Positions 12,550 through 25,251 of a stretch of 64,000 bases of DNA are shown here, piece by piece. Origin of the DNA: an uncultured archaeon (GTDB lineage Archaea > Asgardarchaeota > Lokiarchaeia > Sigyniarchaeales > SOKP01); assembly GCA_964486045.1 (NCBI GenBank), contig CAZALK010000001.1:64001-128000 (forward strand), in the 5' to 3' direction. A model generated the notes under the pieces. The model was not told the origin of the DNA. It saw only the letters and a program-made list of their open reading frames with translations, and did no database searches. Both the position numbers and the translations under genes were made by a program. Each line of letters starts with the position of its first letter. The first letter of the stretch is position 1.

Positions 12550-14154
12550 CTAATTATGGTTTATTGCTTCACCATAACCTATTAAACGATAACGTCTATT
12601 TATGATTCGAGATATTGCGTATATGAAATCTTCAGGAGGACAGATAGGTGGTGTGAGTTTTATTATTGTACTGTTCTTCAAAATTTTTGTCACAGTTCCG
12701 GCTGTTTTTTCAGTTCCAACAACTAATAGCAATTTTTCACCATGTTTAAGTGGTTGAACCTTCATTTGAACTTCTGATCCAATTACGTTATCTAACAGAT
12801 TGACTTTTAATTCAATTTCTTTAAGGATCTCGGGGAGCGTTCCTGGTTTTCCAACTAAATTTCCAATTAGATGATCACCTTTGGTTAATGCTGGATCTAA
12901 ATTCGTACCTAAACCAATCAGCCCACCAGGTTTAGCTCTTTTTAATTGTTTAGTTCCCTGGCTAATGCTTACAACATTTGATTTGATTGGGATATATTCA
13001 TCTTTAATGTGTATACCAGGCTTTATTTCGATTTGAGATCCAATTTCAACATTACCTTTCAGAACAGAACCCCCAATCACTCCACCTTGTAAATCTACAA
13101 GTGCCTTTCCAGGTTTATTAATATCAAATGACCGTGCAATTAAAAATTGAAAAGTTTCCGACTCATTAAATGTAGGAGTGGGGATTATTTCCTCAAAAGC
13201 TCTAACGACTAAATTTAAGTTAGCTTCAAAAACTGCCGAGAGTGGTATGATCGGAGCATTTTCCGCAACAGTCCCTTTTACAAATTCTTTAATCTGTTGA
13301 AAATTCTCTAAAGCTTGGTCTCGGGAAACAGCATCAATTTTATTCTGTAAAATGATAATTCTTTTAATCCCTGCAATATTTAATGCAGCTAAATGCTCGC
13401 GTGTTTGAGGTTGGGGGCATGATTCATCTGCAGCTATTAGTAAGCAAGCCCCATCCATTAATGAGGCACCACTTAACATAGTTGCCATTAAAATCTCGTG
13501 ACCCGGTGCGTCAACAAAAGATATATTTCTTTTAAACTCTAAATTCCTTTTACATTTTTGACATGTAAACCGAGGTTGACCTTTTGCTCTTCTCTGCTCG
13601 ATTAAATGAGCCGTAGTATATTCATCACAGGCAGGACAATACAGAATTGTGGCATTAGAATAGCCAAGTTTTATTGAAATGCCCCTTTCTTGCTCTTCAG
13701 AATGTCGGTCAGTCCAATCTCCAGTTAAAGATTTAATAAGAGTTGTTTTTCCATGGTCTACATGCCCAACAAGCCCAATATTGCATTCTGCTTGTTGTCC
13801 TATCAAATCTTTTATTTTTTTTCCCTTATCTTTTGAAGCCGATTTTAGCTTAGCTTTCATTGTTGGTTTCGGTTTAGGAATTGGTTTAGACTTAGGAGTT
13901 GGTATTGATTTTTTACTTTTTTTTTCTGCTACAGATGTAGTGGATTTTTCTTTTTCGCTTATTTCTTCAAGGAATTTTTTTGCTTTTGCTATAATTTTTT
14001 CAGCAGTTGCTTTACCAACACCTTTAATTTTTAACTTTACTAAATCTACGATCTTTATTCTAACTAATTTTTCAATTGAATCTATCCCAGCCGCTTTCAT
14101 TTTGTCTGCGAGGGTTTTCCCAATTCCTGATACATCTTCTAATTCAAAAGACAT
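12550..14154 (-). CDS. eif2g: Translation initiation factor aIF2 gamma subunit with N-terminal HhH domain and Lys/Pro-rich linker
   Basis: QAECNIGLVGHVDHGKTT, RGISIKLGY, zinc knuckle CPAC..CQKC, DAPGHE, QPQTREH, NKID, RSFDINKPG and RLIGYG; about 120 extra N-terminal aa. Confidence 0.95.
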   Translation of the reverse strand: MSFELEDVSGIGKTLADKMKAAGIDSIEKLVRIKIVDLVKLKIKGVGKATAEKIIAKAKKFLEEISEKEKSTTSVAEKKSKKSIPTPKSKPIPKPKPTMKAKLKSASKDKGKKIKDLIGQQAECNIGLVGHVDHGKTTLIKSLTGDWTDRHSEEQERGISIKLGYSNATILYCPACDEYTTAHLIEQRRAKGQPRFTCQKCKRNLEFKRNISFVDAPGHEILMATMLSGASLMDGACLLIAADESCPQPQTREHLAALNIAGIKRIIILQNKIDAVSRDQALENFQQIKEFVKGTVAENAPIIPLSAVFEANLNLVVRAFEEIIPTPTFNESETFQFLIARSFDINKPGKALVDLQGGVIGGSVLKGNVEIGSQIEIKPGIHIKDEYIPIKSNVVSISQGTKQLKRAKPGGLIGLGTNLDPALTKGDHLIGNLVGKPGTLPEILKEIELKVNLLDNVIGSEVQMKVQPLKHGEKLLLVVGTEKTAGTVTKILKNSTIIKLTPPICPPEDFIYAISRIINRRYRLIGYGEAINHN

Positions 14155-14603: not shown

Positions 14604-16796
14604 ATGTTAAATTTCTATTCAAAGAAGCTCAAATTTTTTTGCATATTCCTTTTGATTTTTTTACCGATTATTGGCTTAACCTTTAAAATTTCTTCTCATA
14701 ACATGAAAACAGCAAATCGTTTAGAAGTAAATCCTTCCATAAGCGGATATCCTGAAGTCGATTTATCATTTATCCCTGAAACTGATTATAGTTACTTAAA
14801 TGATTCATGGTATAATCCCAAAATTGAAATGTTGATTATTTCACCGAATGAAAATTTTTCTGCCGAGTTAAACCGCTTAATGGAGTGGAAAAATGAAAAA
14901 GGAGTAAAAACCGTAATTTTGGACGATTTTTCATTATATGAAGGCGTAGATAAGGCAGAAAAAATCAGAAATATGATTAAAACTTATTATGAGAAAGAAA
15001 ATATACAATGGGTTCTTTTAGCAGGTGATGCTCAAGACGATTTGATTCCAATTAGAGAAGTTTATAATCCCGATGTTATTAGGTACCAACCCTCAACAAG
15101 AGAATCTGTTGGTGGTGAGAATTATAAACCTACGGATCTTTATTATGCCGATTTGACAGGTAGCTGGGATAGTGATGGGGATGGTAATTGGGGGGAAGCT
15201 CCTCAAGATAATTCATTTGGATTAGACGAAATCTCATGGATTCCGGAAGTTTATGTTGGACGATTTCCAGCAAACGATGTTAACGAACTTGGAATAATGG
15301 TTAATAAAACATTAAAATATGAAATTGATCCGTTTATTGGCCCTTGGTTGAATAAAATGCTGTTAGCTGGTGCGATTTCAGGCTTAACTCCATCAGTAGA
15401 GGATGAAGCAGTTCTAATGTCATATATTTCTAGTAACTACGTGCAAAATGAGATGGATTTCACTCATTTACATAGAACCGTTTCACCTTATGATCCCCCA
15501 GTACCTCCTGCACCAAACCGTCAAGAAGGTCTTACAAAGGAGAATATCTTTGATGAGATGAATTTAGGATATTCTACTGCTATTATTGGAAGTCATGGAT
15601 ATTTTTTAAATTTTCAGGACAGTTATGGTGGAAATATTTTAACCCTTCAACAAGTCAATGCCTTAACTAACACTAATATGCCTTTTTTATTCTATGGTGA
15701 TGCTTGTACTACCTCCAGTTATGATATTAATGATAATAGTATTGGGGAAGCATTGATAAAGAAAGATAATGCAGGTGCGATTGGAGTGATAGGTTCATTA
15801 AGAGTTAGTTGGTATTTTGAAGAGGATTATAGTCTAGCGGCGTTAAATCGGGGGAATGCAAAATTATTTTGGAAAGAGTTCTTTGAAAATAAAAAATTTC
15901 AACAAGGAAGAGCTTTATATGATTCAAAAGTCGCATATATCAACAGCGATTATTATAAAATTGGAAGTCAAATAGGAGATAAAATTATACAAGGATCAAC
16001 TATTTATGATTATGAACGTAAAAACTTATTAACATATAACCTCTTAGGTGATCCTGAGGTTGATATTTACACAAATATACCACAAAACGCATCAAATCCT
16101 TTTAATATGAGCATTTATGAAGGACAATTAATTTCAGTTATTATTAAAGATATAAATGGTAAAATTATTCCCCGCGCTAGAGTTCACTTAGAAAGCTCTG
16201 ATGGTAAAGATTATACTGAATATGCTGACGAAAATGGATTACTGAAGCTTCAACTTCTAACCCAAGAAAATGAAACTTATAATGTAACAATAACTGGTCA
16301 CAACCTGAAACGATCTTCATTTAATTTTACCACAATTCCCGATAATGATAAACCTGAATTACGCAAGTTGACACGCACTCCTAAACATCCCTTCACTTCA
16401 GATAAAATAACATTCGATATTGATGTTGTTGATAATTATTCGGGAATAGAAAGTGTATATTTGATTCTCTCTAAAGATAATTTTACAACTTTTAACTACT
16501 ACTCTCTCTCAAATATTCTCTTAGAGAATAATGATAATTTAGCAATTACTATTGATCAATTATTTTCAGGGGATTACTCCTTCCTCATTTATGCAAGAGA
16601 TTATGCAAATAATACGAATATTTTTTATAATGACAGTTTCAGATTTTCTATCCCAAAACCTATTATGGACTATATTCTCCCTGTTTCTTTGGTAGTTATT
16701 ATTGGAATTACTGGAATTTCTAGTTATGTCTTATTTAAAGGTATGAAGAAACATTCTCTTATGAGTAGGGATCCAGAATCATCTGAAGTGATTTAG
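14604..16796 (+). CDS. Peptidase C25 (gingipain) family secreted cysteine protease
   Basis: Signal peptide, WVLLAGD, TDLYYADL, VYVGRFP, catalytic SHG and DACTT, YNLLGDPE; C-terminal TM anchor. Confidence 0.88.
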   Translation: MLNFYSKKLKFFCIFLLIFLPIIGLTFKISSHNMKTANRLEVNPSISGYPEVDLSFIPETDYSYLNDSWYNPKIEMLIISPNENFSAELNRLMEWKNEKGVKTVILDDFSLYEGVDKAEKIRNMIKTYYEKENIQWVLLAGDAQDDLIPIREVYNPDVIRYQPSTRESVGGENYKPTDLYYADLTGSWDSDGDGNWGEAPQDNSFGLDEISWIPEVYVGRFPANDVNELGIMVNKTLKYEIDPFIGPWLNKMLLAGAISGLTPSVEDEAVLMSYISSNYVQNEMDFTHLHRTVSPYDPPVPPAPNRQEGLTKENIFDEMNLGYSTAIIGSHGYFLNFQDSYGGNILTLQQVNALTNTNMPFLFYGDACTTSSYDINDNSIGEALIKKDNAGAIGVIGSLRVSWYFEEDYSLAALNRGNAKLFWKEFFENKKFQQGRALYDSKVAYINSDYYKIGSQIGDKIIQGSTIYDYERKNLLTYNLLGDPEVDIYTNIPQNASNPFNMSIYEGQLISVIIKDINGKIIPRARVHLESSDGKDYTEYADENGLLKLQLLTQENETYNVTITGHNLKRSSFNFTTIPDNDKPELRKLTRTPKHPFTSDKITFDIDVVDNYSGIESVYLILSKDNFTTFNYYSLSNILLENNDNLAITIDQLFSGDYSFLIYARDYANNTNIFYNDSFRFSIPKPIMDYILPVSLVVIIGITGISSYVLFKGMKKHSLMSRDPESSEVI

Positions 16797-16942: not shown

Positions 16943-17635
16943 ATGAAAAGAAGGAAAATTAAAGCTCCGATTAAACGAGTAAAAGAACACTCGACTAAGA
17001 GAAAAATCATTGTAACCGTAATATTACTTGGATTAGCCTTCTCTGGAGCCTTTATAGTATATTTCTTTATGCAAGTAGTTTTAAACACTAAAACTCCGAT
17101 GGTAGTAGTTGTTTCAGAAAGCATGAGACCTAATTTACTCGAAGGAGATTTGCTATTTTTAAGAGGAGTCAATCCAGAAACAATAAGGAATGGTACAATT
17201 GAAGGAAAAGAGGGGGATATAATTGTGTTTGATGCGCGTGGATTACAAGGCTTTAATGACGACTTAGTAGATCCTATCGTTCATAGAGTTATTGATAAGG
17301 AATATGACAATGGCTGGTTTTTTTTGACAAAGGGGGATCACAATGATCACCCTGATCAGGGGTGGGTTCCAGAAACGAGAATATTAGGAGTAGTCGTAGG
17401 TAGAATTCCGTATATTGGTTGGGTAAAAATCATTCTTACTAACTCAGGACTATTAATTCCGTTGTTAGTAATTGTCTCCATTTTACTTGTTGTAAGTGTA
17501 GTATGGGATATTGTTAAGAAAGACCCAGATAAAACAAGTGAAGATGCTAAAAATATGATTTACGATGAGAAGAAAATAAAAACGGTAATTGAATTTGATT
17601 TTACCAAGTCCGAAGAACATAAACCTTTCGAGTAA
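16943..17635 (+). CDS. Signal peptidase I (Sec11/SPC18 type)
   Basis: N-terminal TM, VVVSESMRP (Ser), IVHRVI (His), TKGDHN, GRIPYIGW. Confidence 0.93.
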   Translation: MKRRKIKAPIKRVKEHSTKRKIIVTVILLGLAFSGAFIVYFFMQVVLNTKTPMVVVVSESMRPNLLEGDLLFLRGVNPETIRNGTIEGKEGDIIVFDARGLQGFNDDLVDPIVHRVIDKEYDNGWFFLTKGDHNDHPDQGWVPETRILGVVVGRIPYIGWVKIILTNSGLLIPLLVIVSILLVVSVVWDIVKKDPDKTSEDAKNMIYDEKKIKTVIEFDFTKSEEHKPFE

Positions 17636-18200: not shown

Positions 18201-18420
18201 AAGCTTTATTATTTCTATTTACTTTTTACCAAATAAGAAGGTATTTACCAAGTAAATAACCAGACTTATTGGATGGTAAAATTGTGGTTTTATGACCACA
18301 TAAATAGATAACGTTAAGTTAAGCGCTGGAAGTTAAACTTATTCGCGTTGTAGATAGTACTGCAGTTGATATCTGTGGGAAACTACAAACTGTGAGTTCG
18401 CTCACGGTCATGGTGATTTA

Positions 18421-18464
18421 GGATAATACCCGGTCCCATTGGGGCAGGGATAATACCCGGTCCC
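18421..18464 (+). repeat. 17-bp direct repeat GGATAATACCCGGTCCC (exon copy and intron copy)
   Basis: Identical copies at 18421-18437 and 18448-18464. Confidence 0.95.
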
Positions 18465-18470
18465 GGGAAA
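18440..18470 (+). other. Predicted 31-nt BHB/BHL-type intron in loop C of the 5S rRNA
   Basis: 4-bp helix tccc(18434-37)/ggga(18465-68), bulges att and aa(c), and an internal hairpin ggggc-a-ggg/ccc-g-gtccc. Confidence 0.7.
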
Positions 18471-18605
18471 CCGAACCCGGAAACGCTTATTTATGTGGTT
18501 ATATAAAACTTACTTACTGATATTATATATTTTTGATTAAAAATAATTTTTTTATGTGATCAATTATGATATAGATCATAATAATTAGTGCTAAGGTAAA
18601 AGAAT

Positions 18606-21112: not shown

Positions 21113-21712
21113 TTAATACGTTTGTCGCTCTAATATTTTTCGTGTTAATTGTTCAAAAGCTTGACCAATATTTTCACCCGTTTTAGAGGAGATTTTAAGA
21201 TAGTCAATTAAATTATATTCACTAAGAAAAGATTGGGCATAATCATCGTCTACTTGAATTTCATCAACCAAGTCTAATTTTGTGCCCAGAAAAAGAACAG
21301 GAAGACTTGGGTCTCCCTTACGCACTATGTTTAACCATTGTTCCAAATTCTCCAAGCTGGATATTCTTGTAAGGTCAAACATGAGCATAGCTCCTTTTGC
21401 TCCTAATACATAACTTTCAAGCAGGAATCTAAACCGTTCTTGGCCACCGAAGTCCCAGAGCTGCAAGGTACAGTGTTTATCGTCAATCTCCGTCTCTTTT
21501 AAAAAAAACTCAACCCCAATGGTCATCTTAGTTTCTGCTGAGAATTTCCCCTCCACATATCGAGTAAGGAGCGTTGTCTTCCCCACACCTCCTTCTCCCG
21601 CAGTCAATATTTTGAGTATGAACTTTTTTGGCACGTTACTTACCCGGTTTCGTTTTCTGGTTGAGAATCCTAAAGATCGATCCAAATTGAAAGTACTGTT
21701 TGATTTGCCCAA
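21113..21712 (-). CDS. Rab/Ras-like small GTPase
   Basis: G1 GEGGVGKT, G2 TIGVEF, G3 WDFGGQE, G4 TKLD, G5 ISSKTG; the true start may be the GTG of VPKKF. Confidence 0.93.
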   Translation of the reverse strand: MGKSNSTFNLDRSLGFSTRKRNRVSNVPKKFILKILTAGEGGVGKTTLLTRYVEGKFSAETKMTIGVEFFLKETEIDDKHCTLQLWDFGGQERFRFLLESYVLGAKGAMLMFDLTRISSLENLEQWLNIVRKGDPSLPVLFLGTKLDLVDEIQVDDDYAQSFLSEYNLIDYLKISSKTGENIGQAFEQLTRKILERQTY

Positions 21713-22570: not shown

Positions 22571-23086
22571 ATGACAAGTCCCATACTTTTAAAAGTGATC
22601 ACAGCGGGAGAAGGAGGGGTAGGCAAAACAACGCTCCTTTATCGATACGTGGAAGGAAGGTTTCTGGTTAACACTAAAATAACACTAGGAGTCGAATTTT
22701 TCATGAAAGAGCTAAATATCGAAGGAAGACAAATTAATTTACAAATTTGGGACTTCGGTGGACAAGAACATTTTAGACCCCTATTAAAAAACTATTCTAT
22801 GGGGGCAAGAGGGGCTCTATTACTCTTTGATCTCACTCGTCCATCCAGTTTAGAGAAAATTGATGAATGGGTGAACATTTGTAGAGGAGAAAATCCAGAA
22901 ATTCCTATAATTTTCTTAGGAACTAAATTAGATTTAACAGAATCAATTTCTGTCGATGATGAATTCGCCTTAAAGTTTCCTAAGAAGTATGATTTCTTTG
23001 AATTTTTGAAGATTTCCTCTAAAACGGGAAAGAATGTGAATTTAGCATTCGAGTTATTAGCAAGTAAAATATTAAAGAAGCTTTAG
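22571..23086 (+). CDS. Rab/Ras-like small GTPase
   Basis: GEGGVGKT, TLGVEF, WDFGGQE, TKLD, ISSKTG; paralog of 21113-21712. Confidence 0.93.
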   Translation: MTSPILLKVITAGEGGVGKTTLLYRYVEGRFLVNTKITLGVEFFMKELNIEGRQINLQIWDFGGQEHFRPLLKNYSMGARGALLLFDLTRPSSLEKIDEWVNICRGENPEIPIIFLGTKLDLTESISVDDEFALKFPKKYDFFEFLKISSKTGKNVNLAFELLASKILKKL

Positions 23087-24855: not shown

Positions 24856-25251
24856 ATGGCAAAAAAAAAAGGAAAACAAAGTAAAAGGGGAAAAGGAGGA
24901 AGAGGAGGAAAGGGGTATGTACCTCCCGTTATTACAAGAGTTAAATCCCCGAATAGAAGAATAGGTGAAATATTCGCAATCGTAGTTGAAATCCTCGGTG
25001 GTGAGAGAATGCGAGTATTTTGTGAGGACGGAGAGTTTAGAATAGGAAGAATTCGTGGAAAAATAAAAAAACGGGTATGGGTTAGGCGTGGAGACTTAGT
25101 TGTTGTAAACCCTTGGGAATGGGAGACAAAAACCAAAGATAAATTAGGGAAGTGCGAAATATCATGGAGATATACAAGAGCTGAGATCTCTTGGCTTAAT
25201 CGAAATAATAAAGTTCCTGATATTTTAGATATTAATAACATTCAATTTTAA
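24856..25251 (+). CDS. eif1a: Translation initiation factor aIF-1A
   Basis: LGGERMRVFCEDG..RIGRIRGKIKKRVWVRRGDLVVV.PW..WRYT. Confidence 0.95.
   Translation: MAKKKGKQSKRGKGGRGGKGYVPPVITRVKSPNRRIGEIFAIVVEILGGERMRVFCEDGEFRIGRIRGKIKKRVWVRRGDLVVVNPWEWETKTKDKLGKCEISWRYTRAEISWLNRNNKVPDILDINNIQF

What the first reader, a model, noticed from the sequence alone, without database searches (positions are those of the whole stretch)
18320..18489. Circularly permuted 5S rRNA gene predicted to be matured into a covalent circle by BHB splicing
Seen: the gap holds a complete 5S rRNA in the wrong order. The 3' half (18332-18396: GTTAAAC, helix V ttgtag/ctacaa, loop E AGTA/GGAA, helix IV ctgcag/ctgtgg, actgtgag) is joined by TTCG to the 5' half (18401 onward: ctcacggt..ACCCGGTCCCAT..CCGAACCCGGAA), so helix I is a closed hairpin. 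The new ends sit in a BHB/BHL-like motif: taagcg/cgctta outer helix, AAA bulge (18481-83), 4-bp ctgg/ccgg helix and AAG bulge (18330-32). Established: archaeal EndA cuts after the 2nd bulge nucleotide, and the excised piece is circularised by RtcB-type ligation. Permuted, BHB-circularised SRP RNA is known in Thermoproteus, permuted tRNA genes are known, and permuted organellar 5S rRNAs exist. Inference: cuts at 18331|18332 and 18482|18483 followed by ligation give ...CCGAACCCGGAA|GUUAAAC..., exactly the conserved 5S helix III/loop B sequence. The 5S rRNA would thus be made as an excised circular 'intron' of about 120 nt. I know of no description of this for an archaeal 5S rRNA. It would also make standard 5S searches miss or fragment the gene.
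Basis: partly seen in the sequence, partly recalled or inferred. Interest (0 to 1): 0.97.

Follow-up and report, generated by a model that had tools for sequence, protein, structure and literature searches.

The report
Back-to-front, intron-bearing 5S rRNA gene
This Asgard archaeon encodes its only 5S ribosomal RNA back half first and with a 31-base intron, between tRNA-intron-type cut signals. Public RNA data from close relatives hold exactly the predicted 120-base closed ring, which explains why standard searches miss the 5S gene in this family.

Summary
Confirmed. 18332-18482 is a circularly permuted 5S rRNA gene of a Promethearchaeota (Lokiarchaeia) archaeon. It is the only 5S found in a 99%-complete genome that encodes uL5, uL18, two EndA paralogues and RtcB. 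Helix I is closed by a 4-nt loop and the new ends lie in a BHB. A nested 31-nt BHB intron (18440-18470) must also be removed to give 120 nt. Rejoining lifts a 5S HMM score from 21.9 to 50.4 bits. The closed helix I occurs in 104/135 family genomes, and all five helices covary. Two opening points in the family, and others in sister families, rejoin to the same 5S sequence. RNA contigs of four studies cover only the ring, and two show the predicted 'back 120' joint, which was not found in metagenome DNA. These RNAs are from relatives (nearest 3 changes away), not this strain. Not shown: that the ring stays closed in ribosomes, the exact cut, EndA cleavage, and splicing of this intron. The scan noted this system before in other Asgard genomes; I found no paper on it. 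Closest precedent: Thermoproteus circular SRP RNA.

The parts
18266..18273 (+). TATA-box-like element (degenerate here, TTATTGGA; TTATAAAA or TTATTAAA in relatives), about 25 nt before the inferred start near 18291-18296
   Evidence: position conserved in genus alignment; function inferred
18291..18304 (+). leader arm of the long enclosing stem (pairs with 18490-18503)
   Evidence: fold; the CCACATA / TATGTGG arms are conserved in relatives
18320..18331 (+). leader half of outer BHB: outer helix 18320-25, central helix CTGG 18326-29, bulge AA|G; predicted cut 18331|18332
   Evidence: 93 of 96 distinct genes keep 4/4 central pairs
18332..18396 (+). 3' half of 5S rRNA (end of helix III, helix II 3' strand, helix V, loop E, helix IV, helix I 3' strand)
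   Evidence: matches HMM positions 49-115; covarying pairs in helices IV and V
18397..18400 (+). UUCG loop joining the normal 3' and 5' ends (closes the 7-bp helix I)
   Evidence: 4-nt loop pattern in 104 of 135 family genomes, reversed-pattern control 1 hit; loop variants; RNA contigs run through it
18401..18439 (+). 5' half of 5S rRNA, exon 1 (helix I 5' strand to loop C)
   Evidence: alignment to canonical 5S
18440..18470 (+). 31-nt BHB-type intron in loop C: central helix TCCC 18434-37 / GGGA 18465-68, bulges AT|T and AA|C, inner helix; holds a 17-nt copy of 18421-18437
   Evidence: only deletion that restores the intronless loop of relatives; shuffle frequency of such a BHB 6e-5 to 4e-3 depending on strictness; position not seen in the other parsed genes
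18471..18482 (+). 5S exon 2 (rest of loop C, helix III 3' strand CCGG 18477-80 and its AA bulge); predicted cut 18482|18483
18483..18503 (+). trailer: third bulge base, outer helix 18484-89, enclosing stem arm
   Evidence: the equivalent trailer of a relative has no RNA coverage

Best explanation
The locus is the functional, single 5S rRNA gene. It is transcribed on its own as a precursor of about 210 nt (inferred). Leader and trailer pair and present a bulge-helix-bulge. The leader's CUGG stands in for the 5' strand of helix III, and the natural AA bulge of helix III supplies the first two bulge bases. The two-subunit EndA cuts at 18331|18332 and 18482|18483, and also around the nested 31-nt intron. 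RtcB joins the ends (enzymes inferred). The product is a 120-nt covalently closed RNA with the standard 5S fold, whose normal ends are sealed by a UUCG loop. A 120-nt ring is shown in RNA of close relatives. It most likely enters the 50S subunit without being reopened (inferred, about 70%).
For: No other 5S was found in the genome by Rfam or by HMM, while uL5, uL18, two EndA genes and RtcB are present. Rejoining raises the score in 90 of 90 genes. Covarying pairs occur in helices I-V. The BHB central helix is kept in 93 of 96 genes; all 14 genes whose helix III strand changed G to A have U opposite in the leader, none C. Two opening points 16 nt apart (67 class A, 29 class B) and further ones in sister families all rejoin to the 5S sequence. 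In RNA contigs of 4 studies, coverage is confined to the ring; X4 and X5 show a joint 'goes back 120' at the places computed beforehand. The X5 contig is 150 = 120 + 30 overlap, and it is 3 changes from the window's spliced ring and 14 from the nearest class B ring. The joined form has 0 hits in metagenome DNA against 24 for the gene form. The linker is 4 nt in all genes found. An engineered tetraloop-closed permuted 5S, fused into 23S, supports growth of E. coli (PMC7283268).
Against: The RNA comes from relatives, as assembled contigs: no strand, level or ends. The joint is ambiguous by 6 nt on the reference used. Rings are probably favoured over 120-nt linear RNA in random-primed libraries, so a minor intermediate could look dominant. 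The BHB conformer is not the computed minimum (-66.3 with both BHBs, -69.3 outer only, against -75.0 kcal/mol). The TATA-like box is degenerate in this genome. The search patterns presuppose a 4-nt linker, so longer linkers would be missed. Kin are not independent, so the counts overstate.
Confidence: 0.72

Rival explanations
1. Same gene and same BHB ligation, but the ring is an intermediate: a nuclease opens or removes the tetraloop to give an ordinary linear 5S, as with permuted tRNA genes and P. furiosus 23S rRNA.
For: Precedent in permuted tRNAs (PMC3978253 abstract; PMC4267664) and re-linearised permuted 23S (PMC12918454). Contigs cannot give the ratio of ring to linear.
Against: The linker is a short, stable-type tetraloop in all genes found, and helix I covaries right up to the loop. 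RNA contigs cross the loop in all four studies. No processing signal like the RNase P or tRNase Z sites of tRNA is evident (own knowledge).
Confidence: 0.2
2. [quoted passage not shown]
For: Linear permuted 5S exists in organelles (PMC4267664). Stray 5S circles occur in archaea (PMC12558985).
Against: The break falls in helix III beside the AA bulge (a uL18 contact, own knowledge) in class A and in loop C in class B. Different registers converge on one rejoined sequence. The joint seen is at the one predicted ring length, not scattered.
Confidence: 0.04
3. This particular copy is dead or misassembled: the 31-nt insert with its duplicated 17-mer is an assembly error or an unspliced, inactivating duplication, and the true 5S of this strain is unassembled.
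For: The insert was seen only in this genome and repeats neighbouring sequence. The MAG has 45 contigs and 7.8% contamination. No reads of this strain were available.
Against: The insert has 14 non-duplicated bases that complete a Watson-Crick central helix and 3-nt bulges exactly at the unique boundary. In 36 of 39 insert-bearing relatives, all inserts are clean 30-31-nt BHB introns. The exons are 3 changes from an intronless relative.
Confidence: 0.04

Closest known systems
Permuted, circular SRP RNA of Thermoproteus tenax / T. uzoniensis (Plagens et al. 2015, PMC4731332)
   Same: A seemingly missing universal RNA whose gene is permuted. [quoted passage not shown]
   Different: Here it is a ribosomal RNA, found across a whole family and in sister families rather than two species. 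There are several opening points and nested BHB introns. It is not experimentally verified.
Circularly permuted tRNA genes (Cyanidioschyzon merolae, Thermofilum pendens; PMC3978253, PMC3218864)
   Same: Swapped halves, BHB at the new termini, ligation to a circle.
   Different: The tRNA circle is reopened and its linker removed; here the linker is a 4-nt loop and probably stays.
BHB-circularised archaeal pre-16S/23S and circular or permuted mature 23S rRNA (PMC7758197, PMC12918454, bioRxiv 10.64898/2026.03.23.713588)
   Same: EndA excision and ligation of an rRNA; a closed rRNA can sit in ribosomes.
   Different: Those genes are colinear and the circle joins the normal ends; PMC12918454 states that this processing is not described for 5S. 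Here the gene itself is permuted and ligation is needed to build helix III or loop C.
Permuted organellar 5S rRNAs of brown algae (Valach et al. 2014, PMC4267664)
   Same: Helix I is replaced by a closed hairpin and the ends are moved.
   Different: Those ends lie at the three-way junction and the product stays linear and permuted, with no BHB or ligation.
Circular 5S species of Halobacterium and Sulfolobus (PMC12558985, citing Danan 2012)
   Same: Covalently closed 5S-derived RNA in archaea.
   Different: Those have heterogeneous ends, come from colinear genes and are proposed to be degradation-related.

Membership tests
5S rRNA (RF00001) | Score above the Rfam gathering cut-off (38 bits) | tested here: inconclusive
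   18.6 bits in genomic order. The rearranged sequence could not be given to Infernal. The substitute HMM from 11 canonical sister-family genes gave 50.4 bits rejoined, within the leave-one-out range of true members, 22-104.
5S rRNA (RF00001) | Five helices around a three-way junction, supported by covariation | tested here: met
   The top covarying column pairs fall in helices I, II, III, IV and V across 78 distinct rejoined sequences.
5S rRNA (RF00001) | About 120 nt with conserved loop C, helix III bulge and loop E motifs | tested here: met
   Ring 120 nt here, 119-123 in 90 genes; alignment.
5S rRNA (RF00001) | Binds uL5 and uL18 in the 50S subunit | not testable with these tools
   Both genes are present.
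EndA BHB substrate | 4-bp central helix with two 3-nt bulges on opposite strands and a flanking helix | tested here: met
   conserved with compensation. Not the minimum-energy fold.
EndA BHB substrate | Cut after the second bulge base gives the observed product | tested here: inconclusive
   Ring length 120 and joint places match, but the joint slides by 6 nt. Among offsets only equal shifts keep the top score.
EndA BHB substrate | Cleaved by EndA, ligated by RtcB | not testable with these tools
   Two EndA paralogues and RtcB are in the genome. Asgard EndA is of the two-subunit type with the L1 broad-specificity loop (PMC5829648).
Permuted gene with circular mature RNA (Thermoproteus SRP type) | No colinear gene; permuted gene present | tested here: met
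   Only 2 of 126 family genomes pass the RF00001 cut-off, and both also hold the closed-helix-I pattern.
Permuted gene with circular mature RNA (Thermoproteus SRP type) | Junction-spanning RNA, absent from DNA | tested here: met
   (relatives, not this strain).
Permuted gene with circular mature RNA (Thermoproteus SRP type) | The circle is the dominant, functional form | not testable with these tools
   Contigs give no levels or ends.
Archaeal BHB intron (insert 18440-18470) | BHB at the exon boundaries; removal restores the intronless allele exactly | tested here: met
Archaeal BHB intron (insert 18440-18470) | Spliced out in RNA of the carrier | not testable with these tools
   No RNA run of this strain was found (all shares 0.12 or less).

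The most novel reading that the evidence does not exclude
Ribosomes of a large Asgard lineage carry a covalently closed 5S rRNA with no free ends. It is made obligatorily by the tRNA-splicing machinery from a permuted gene, in this genome by two nested splicing events. The opening point has moved several times in evolution while the flanks stayed, and 30-nt BHB introns have been gained at several sites.
Probability: 0.68. Interest if true: 0.93.

Novelty: new variant of a known kind. Interest (0 to 1): 0.88.

Why it matters
5S rRNA is one of the most uniform genes of life. In the literature searched I found no cellular 5S gene that is permuted, needs ligation or has introns. The finding explains why most genomes of this family (124 of 126 searched) have no 5S above the Rfam cut-off, and it gives a fix for annotation. 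It makes EndA and RtcB essential for 5S biogenesis in relatives of the eukaryotic ancestor. It shows how a structural RNA can be re-permuted at natural helix-plus-bulge sites. It offers a direct test of whether a ribosome can run on an end-less 5S.

Tried and rejected
Rfam scan in genomic order: only a misaligned 18.6-bit hit. That HMM prefers a 117-nt product with one more U in loop C (57.9 bits). I rejected this as the splice product because it fits no BHB register and the closest relatives have the shorter loop. The sigma-70 promoter scan is uninformative for an archaeon. Thermodynamic folding does not put the BHB at the minimum. The joined ring was not found in JGI metagenome DNA, which serves as a negative control. 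No sequencing run of this strain was found, and habitats of the small-share runs are not used. Literature searches for permuted or circular or intron-bearing 5S in Asgard gave no matching paper; the library lacks most subscription journals. An October 2026 preprint on Asgard tRNA introns does not mention rRNA. One search was a pattern error, corrected. L139 was mis-parsed, and L171 and L172 were not resolved by the intron script. The Fisher p of 5e-5 for leader compensation is inflated by kinship and is not relied on.

Full report
Setting. The element lies alone in a 570-bp gap between membrane-protein ORFs. The genome has 5.18 Mb, 31% GC, 99% completeness and 7.8% contamination. An exact pattern across the closed helix I hits 51 public contigs, nearly all labelled Promethearchaeota or other Asgard MAGs or uncultured archaea. 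With the eukaryote-like GTPases in the window, the host is a Lokiarchaeia-type Asgard archaeon.

Observation. The 5S 3' half is at 18332-18396, TTCG at 18397-18400 and the 5' half from 18401. The BHB has a 6-bp outer helix (18320-25/18484-89), a central helix CTGG/CCGG (18326-29/18477-80) and bulges AAG and AAA. RF00001 gives only 18.6 bits in genomic order. I built an HMM from 11 canonical 5S genes of the sister family. It scores the genomic order 21.9 bits, the rejoined form 40.6 and the rejoined form without the loop C insert 50.4; shuffles reach 0.7. No other 5S is found in the genome by Rfam or by this HMM, while uL5 and uL18 are encoded.

Nested intron. The excised piece is 151 nt because 18440-18470 interrupts loop C. 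This is the only deletion that restores the loop of intronless relatives. It carries a Watson-Crick central helix TCCC/GGGA, bulges AT|T and AA|C and an inner helix; shuffles of the insert give such a motif at 6e-5 to 4e-3. It holds a 17-nt copy of the neighbouring exon, which suggests a recent birth by local duplication (inference). Among 96 distinct parsed genes, ring lengths fall at 119-123 (56 genes), 150-153 (35) and 180-182 (4), with one mis-parse. In 36 of the 39 long genes, all inserts resolve into 30-31-nt BHB introns, at four or more positions. The window's position was seen only here.

Conservation. The closed helix I is found in 104 of 135 family genomes and 12 of 13 genera; the reversed-pattern control gives 1 hit. 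Only 2 of 126 family genomes have a 5S above the Rfam cut-off, and both also carry the permuted pattern. In the sister family f2, 11 of 13 genomes are canonical. The best covarying column pairs of the rejoined alignment are the pairs of helices I-V, so the fold is under selection. The central BHB helix keeps 4/4 pairs in 93 of 96 genes. All 14 genes in which the helix III strand reads CCAG or TCAG have CTGG in the leader, none CCGG. Outer-helix pairing (mean 4.4) exceeds all 2000 partner shuffles (mean 2.8, maximum 3.3), with the caveat of kinship.

Several opening points. Class A (67 genes, including the window) opens after the AA bulge of helix III. Class B (29 genes) opens 16 nt earlier, in loop C, with the same flanks and its own BHB. 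Both rejoin to the same sequence, and rejoining raises the score in 62 of 62 and 28 of 28 scorable genes. Three genomes of other families open one base later or in loop B, and they also gain score on rejoining. Independent registers converging on one product under the 'cut after the second bulge base' rule are the strongest sequence argument for BHB ligation. The two CCGG strands of helix III, either of which can pair with the leader's CYGG, offer a simple route between A and B (inference; mechanism untested).

RNA. I laid four metatranscriptomes on the intronless class A relative L003, whose ring ends (1608 and 1489) I had computed first. Coverage is confined to the ring (pieces span 1489-1614, the last 6 nt being shared with the leader); leader and trailer have none. 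A joint 1608 to 1489, 'goes back 120', is present in X4 and X5, and wrap-around contigs are present in X1 and X2. The X5 contig is 150 nt with a 30-nt overlap, the form a 120-nt circle takes in an assembly graph. It crosses both the tetraloop and the junction. Reconstructed from the tables, it is 3 changes from the window's spliced ring and 14 from the nearest class B ring. The joined form has 0 hits in JGI metagenome DNA, where the gene form has 24. Limits: these are relatives, not this strain; contigs give no strand, level or ends; the joint slides by 6 nt; rings may be over-captured.

Mechanism. Shown: permuted gene, conserved BHB, single copy, 120-nt ring in relatives. Inferred: transcription from a TATA-like box at 18266-18273; cutting by a two-subunit EndA (two paralogues; Asgard enzymes are of the relaxed-specificity type, PMC5829648); ligation by RtcB; retention of the ring in ribosomes. 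Retention is favoured by the 4-nt linker (TTCG 61, TTAG 16, TTTG 12 of 96) and by an engineered tetraloop-closed 5S that works in E. coli when fused into 23S (PMC7283268). Against easy formation of the motif, the BHB conformer lies 6-9 kcal/mol above the computed minimum.

Comparison. It works like the permuted circular SRP RNA of Thermoproteus (PMC4731332). It differs from permuted tRNAs (reopened), from circular 16S/23S (colinear genes; PMC12918454 says 5S is not processed this way), from brown-algal mitochondrial 5S (linear product) and from the heterogeneous 5S circles of Halobacterium and Sulfolobus. Literature searches found no paper on a permuted or intron-bearing archaeal 5S gene. This scan's earlier notes describe the same system in other Asgard genomes; they are unchecked AI notes and are not counted as support.

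Verdict. A real, conserved and expressed (in relatives) permuted 5S gene with a nested BHB intron. Gene-level permutation about 0.98, BHB ligation about 0.92, closed mature form about 0.7. It is a new variant of a known kind, applied to a ribosomal RNA; interest 0.88.

Noticed in passing
L010-L016 and other class B loci versus window 18332-18482: Class A and class B genes differ only by moving one 16-nt block from the 3' end to the 5' end of the ring, with leader and trailer unchanged. This suggests re-permutation through a duplicated or ring-derived copy at CCGG microhomologies.
   Followed up: partly
L045, L050, L057 (families f3, f6) versus L033-L044 (family f2): Other families of the class are permuted at further registers, while family f2 has colinear, often multi-copy 5S genes. 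The permutation is either ancestral with a reversion in f2 or arose repeatedly; no tree was built.
   Followed up: partly
L032 (G094) and L043 (G110): The only two canonical 5S hits in family f1 look unlike Lokiarchaeia 5S and may be binning contaminants; both genomes also hold the permuted pattern.
   Followed up: partly
L124; G014 and G129: L124 shows a partial tandem copy of the permuted gene just upstream; G014 and G129 each have two pattern hits.
   Followed up: no
L171 (G158): A 30-nt insert in the helix II / loop A region, a possible fifth intron position that the script did not resolve.
   Followed up: no
L107: The closed-helix-I pattern occurs on a contig labelled as a Lentisphaeraceae bacterium; probably misbinned or a fragment.
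   Followed up: no
window 12550-14154 (-): aIF2-gamma-like GTPase with an extra N-terminal helix-hairpin-helix-like and Lys/Pro-rich extension of about 120 aa (read by eye from the translation).
   Followed up: no
window 14604-16796 (+), 16943-17635 (+), 21113-21712 (-), 22571-23086 (+), 24856-25251 (+): Gingipain/C25-like protease, signal peptidase I, two Rab-like small GTPases and aIF1A, named by eye from the translations.
   Followed up: no
whole genome: ARAGORN with introns gives only 31 tRNA calls, many doubtful, which fits heavily interrupted tRNA genes.
   Followed up: no
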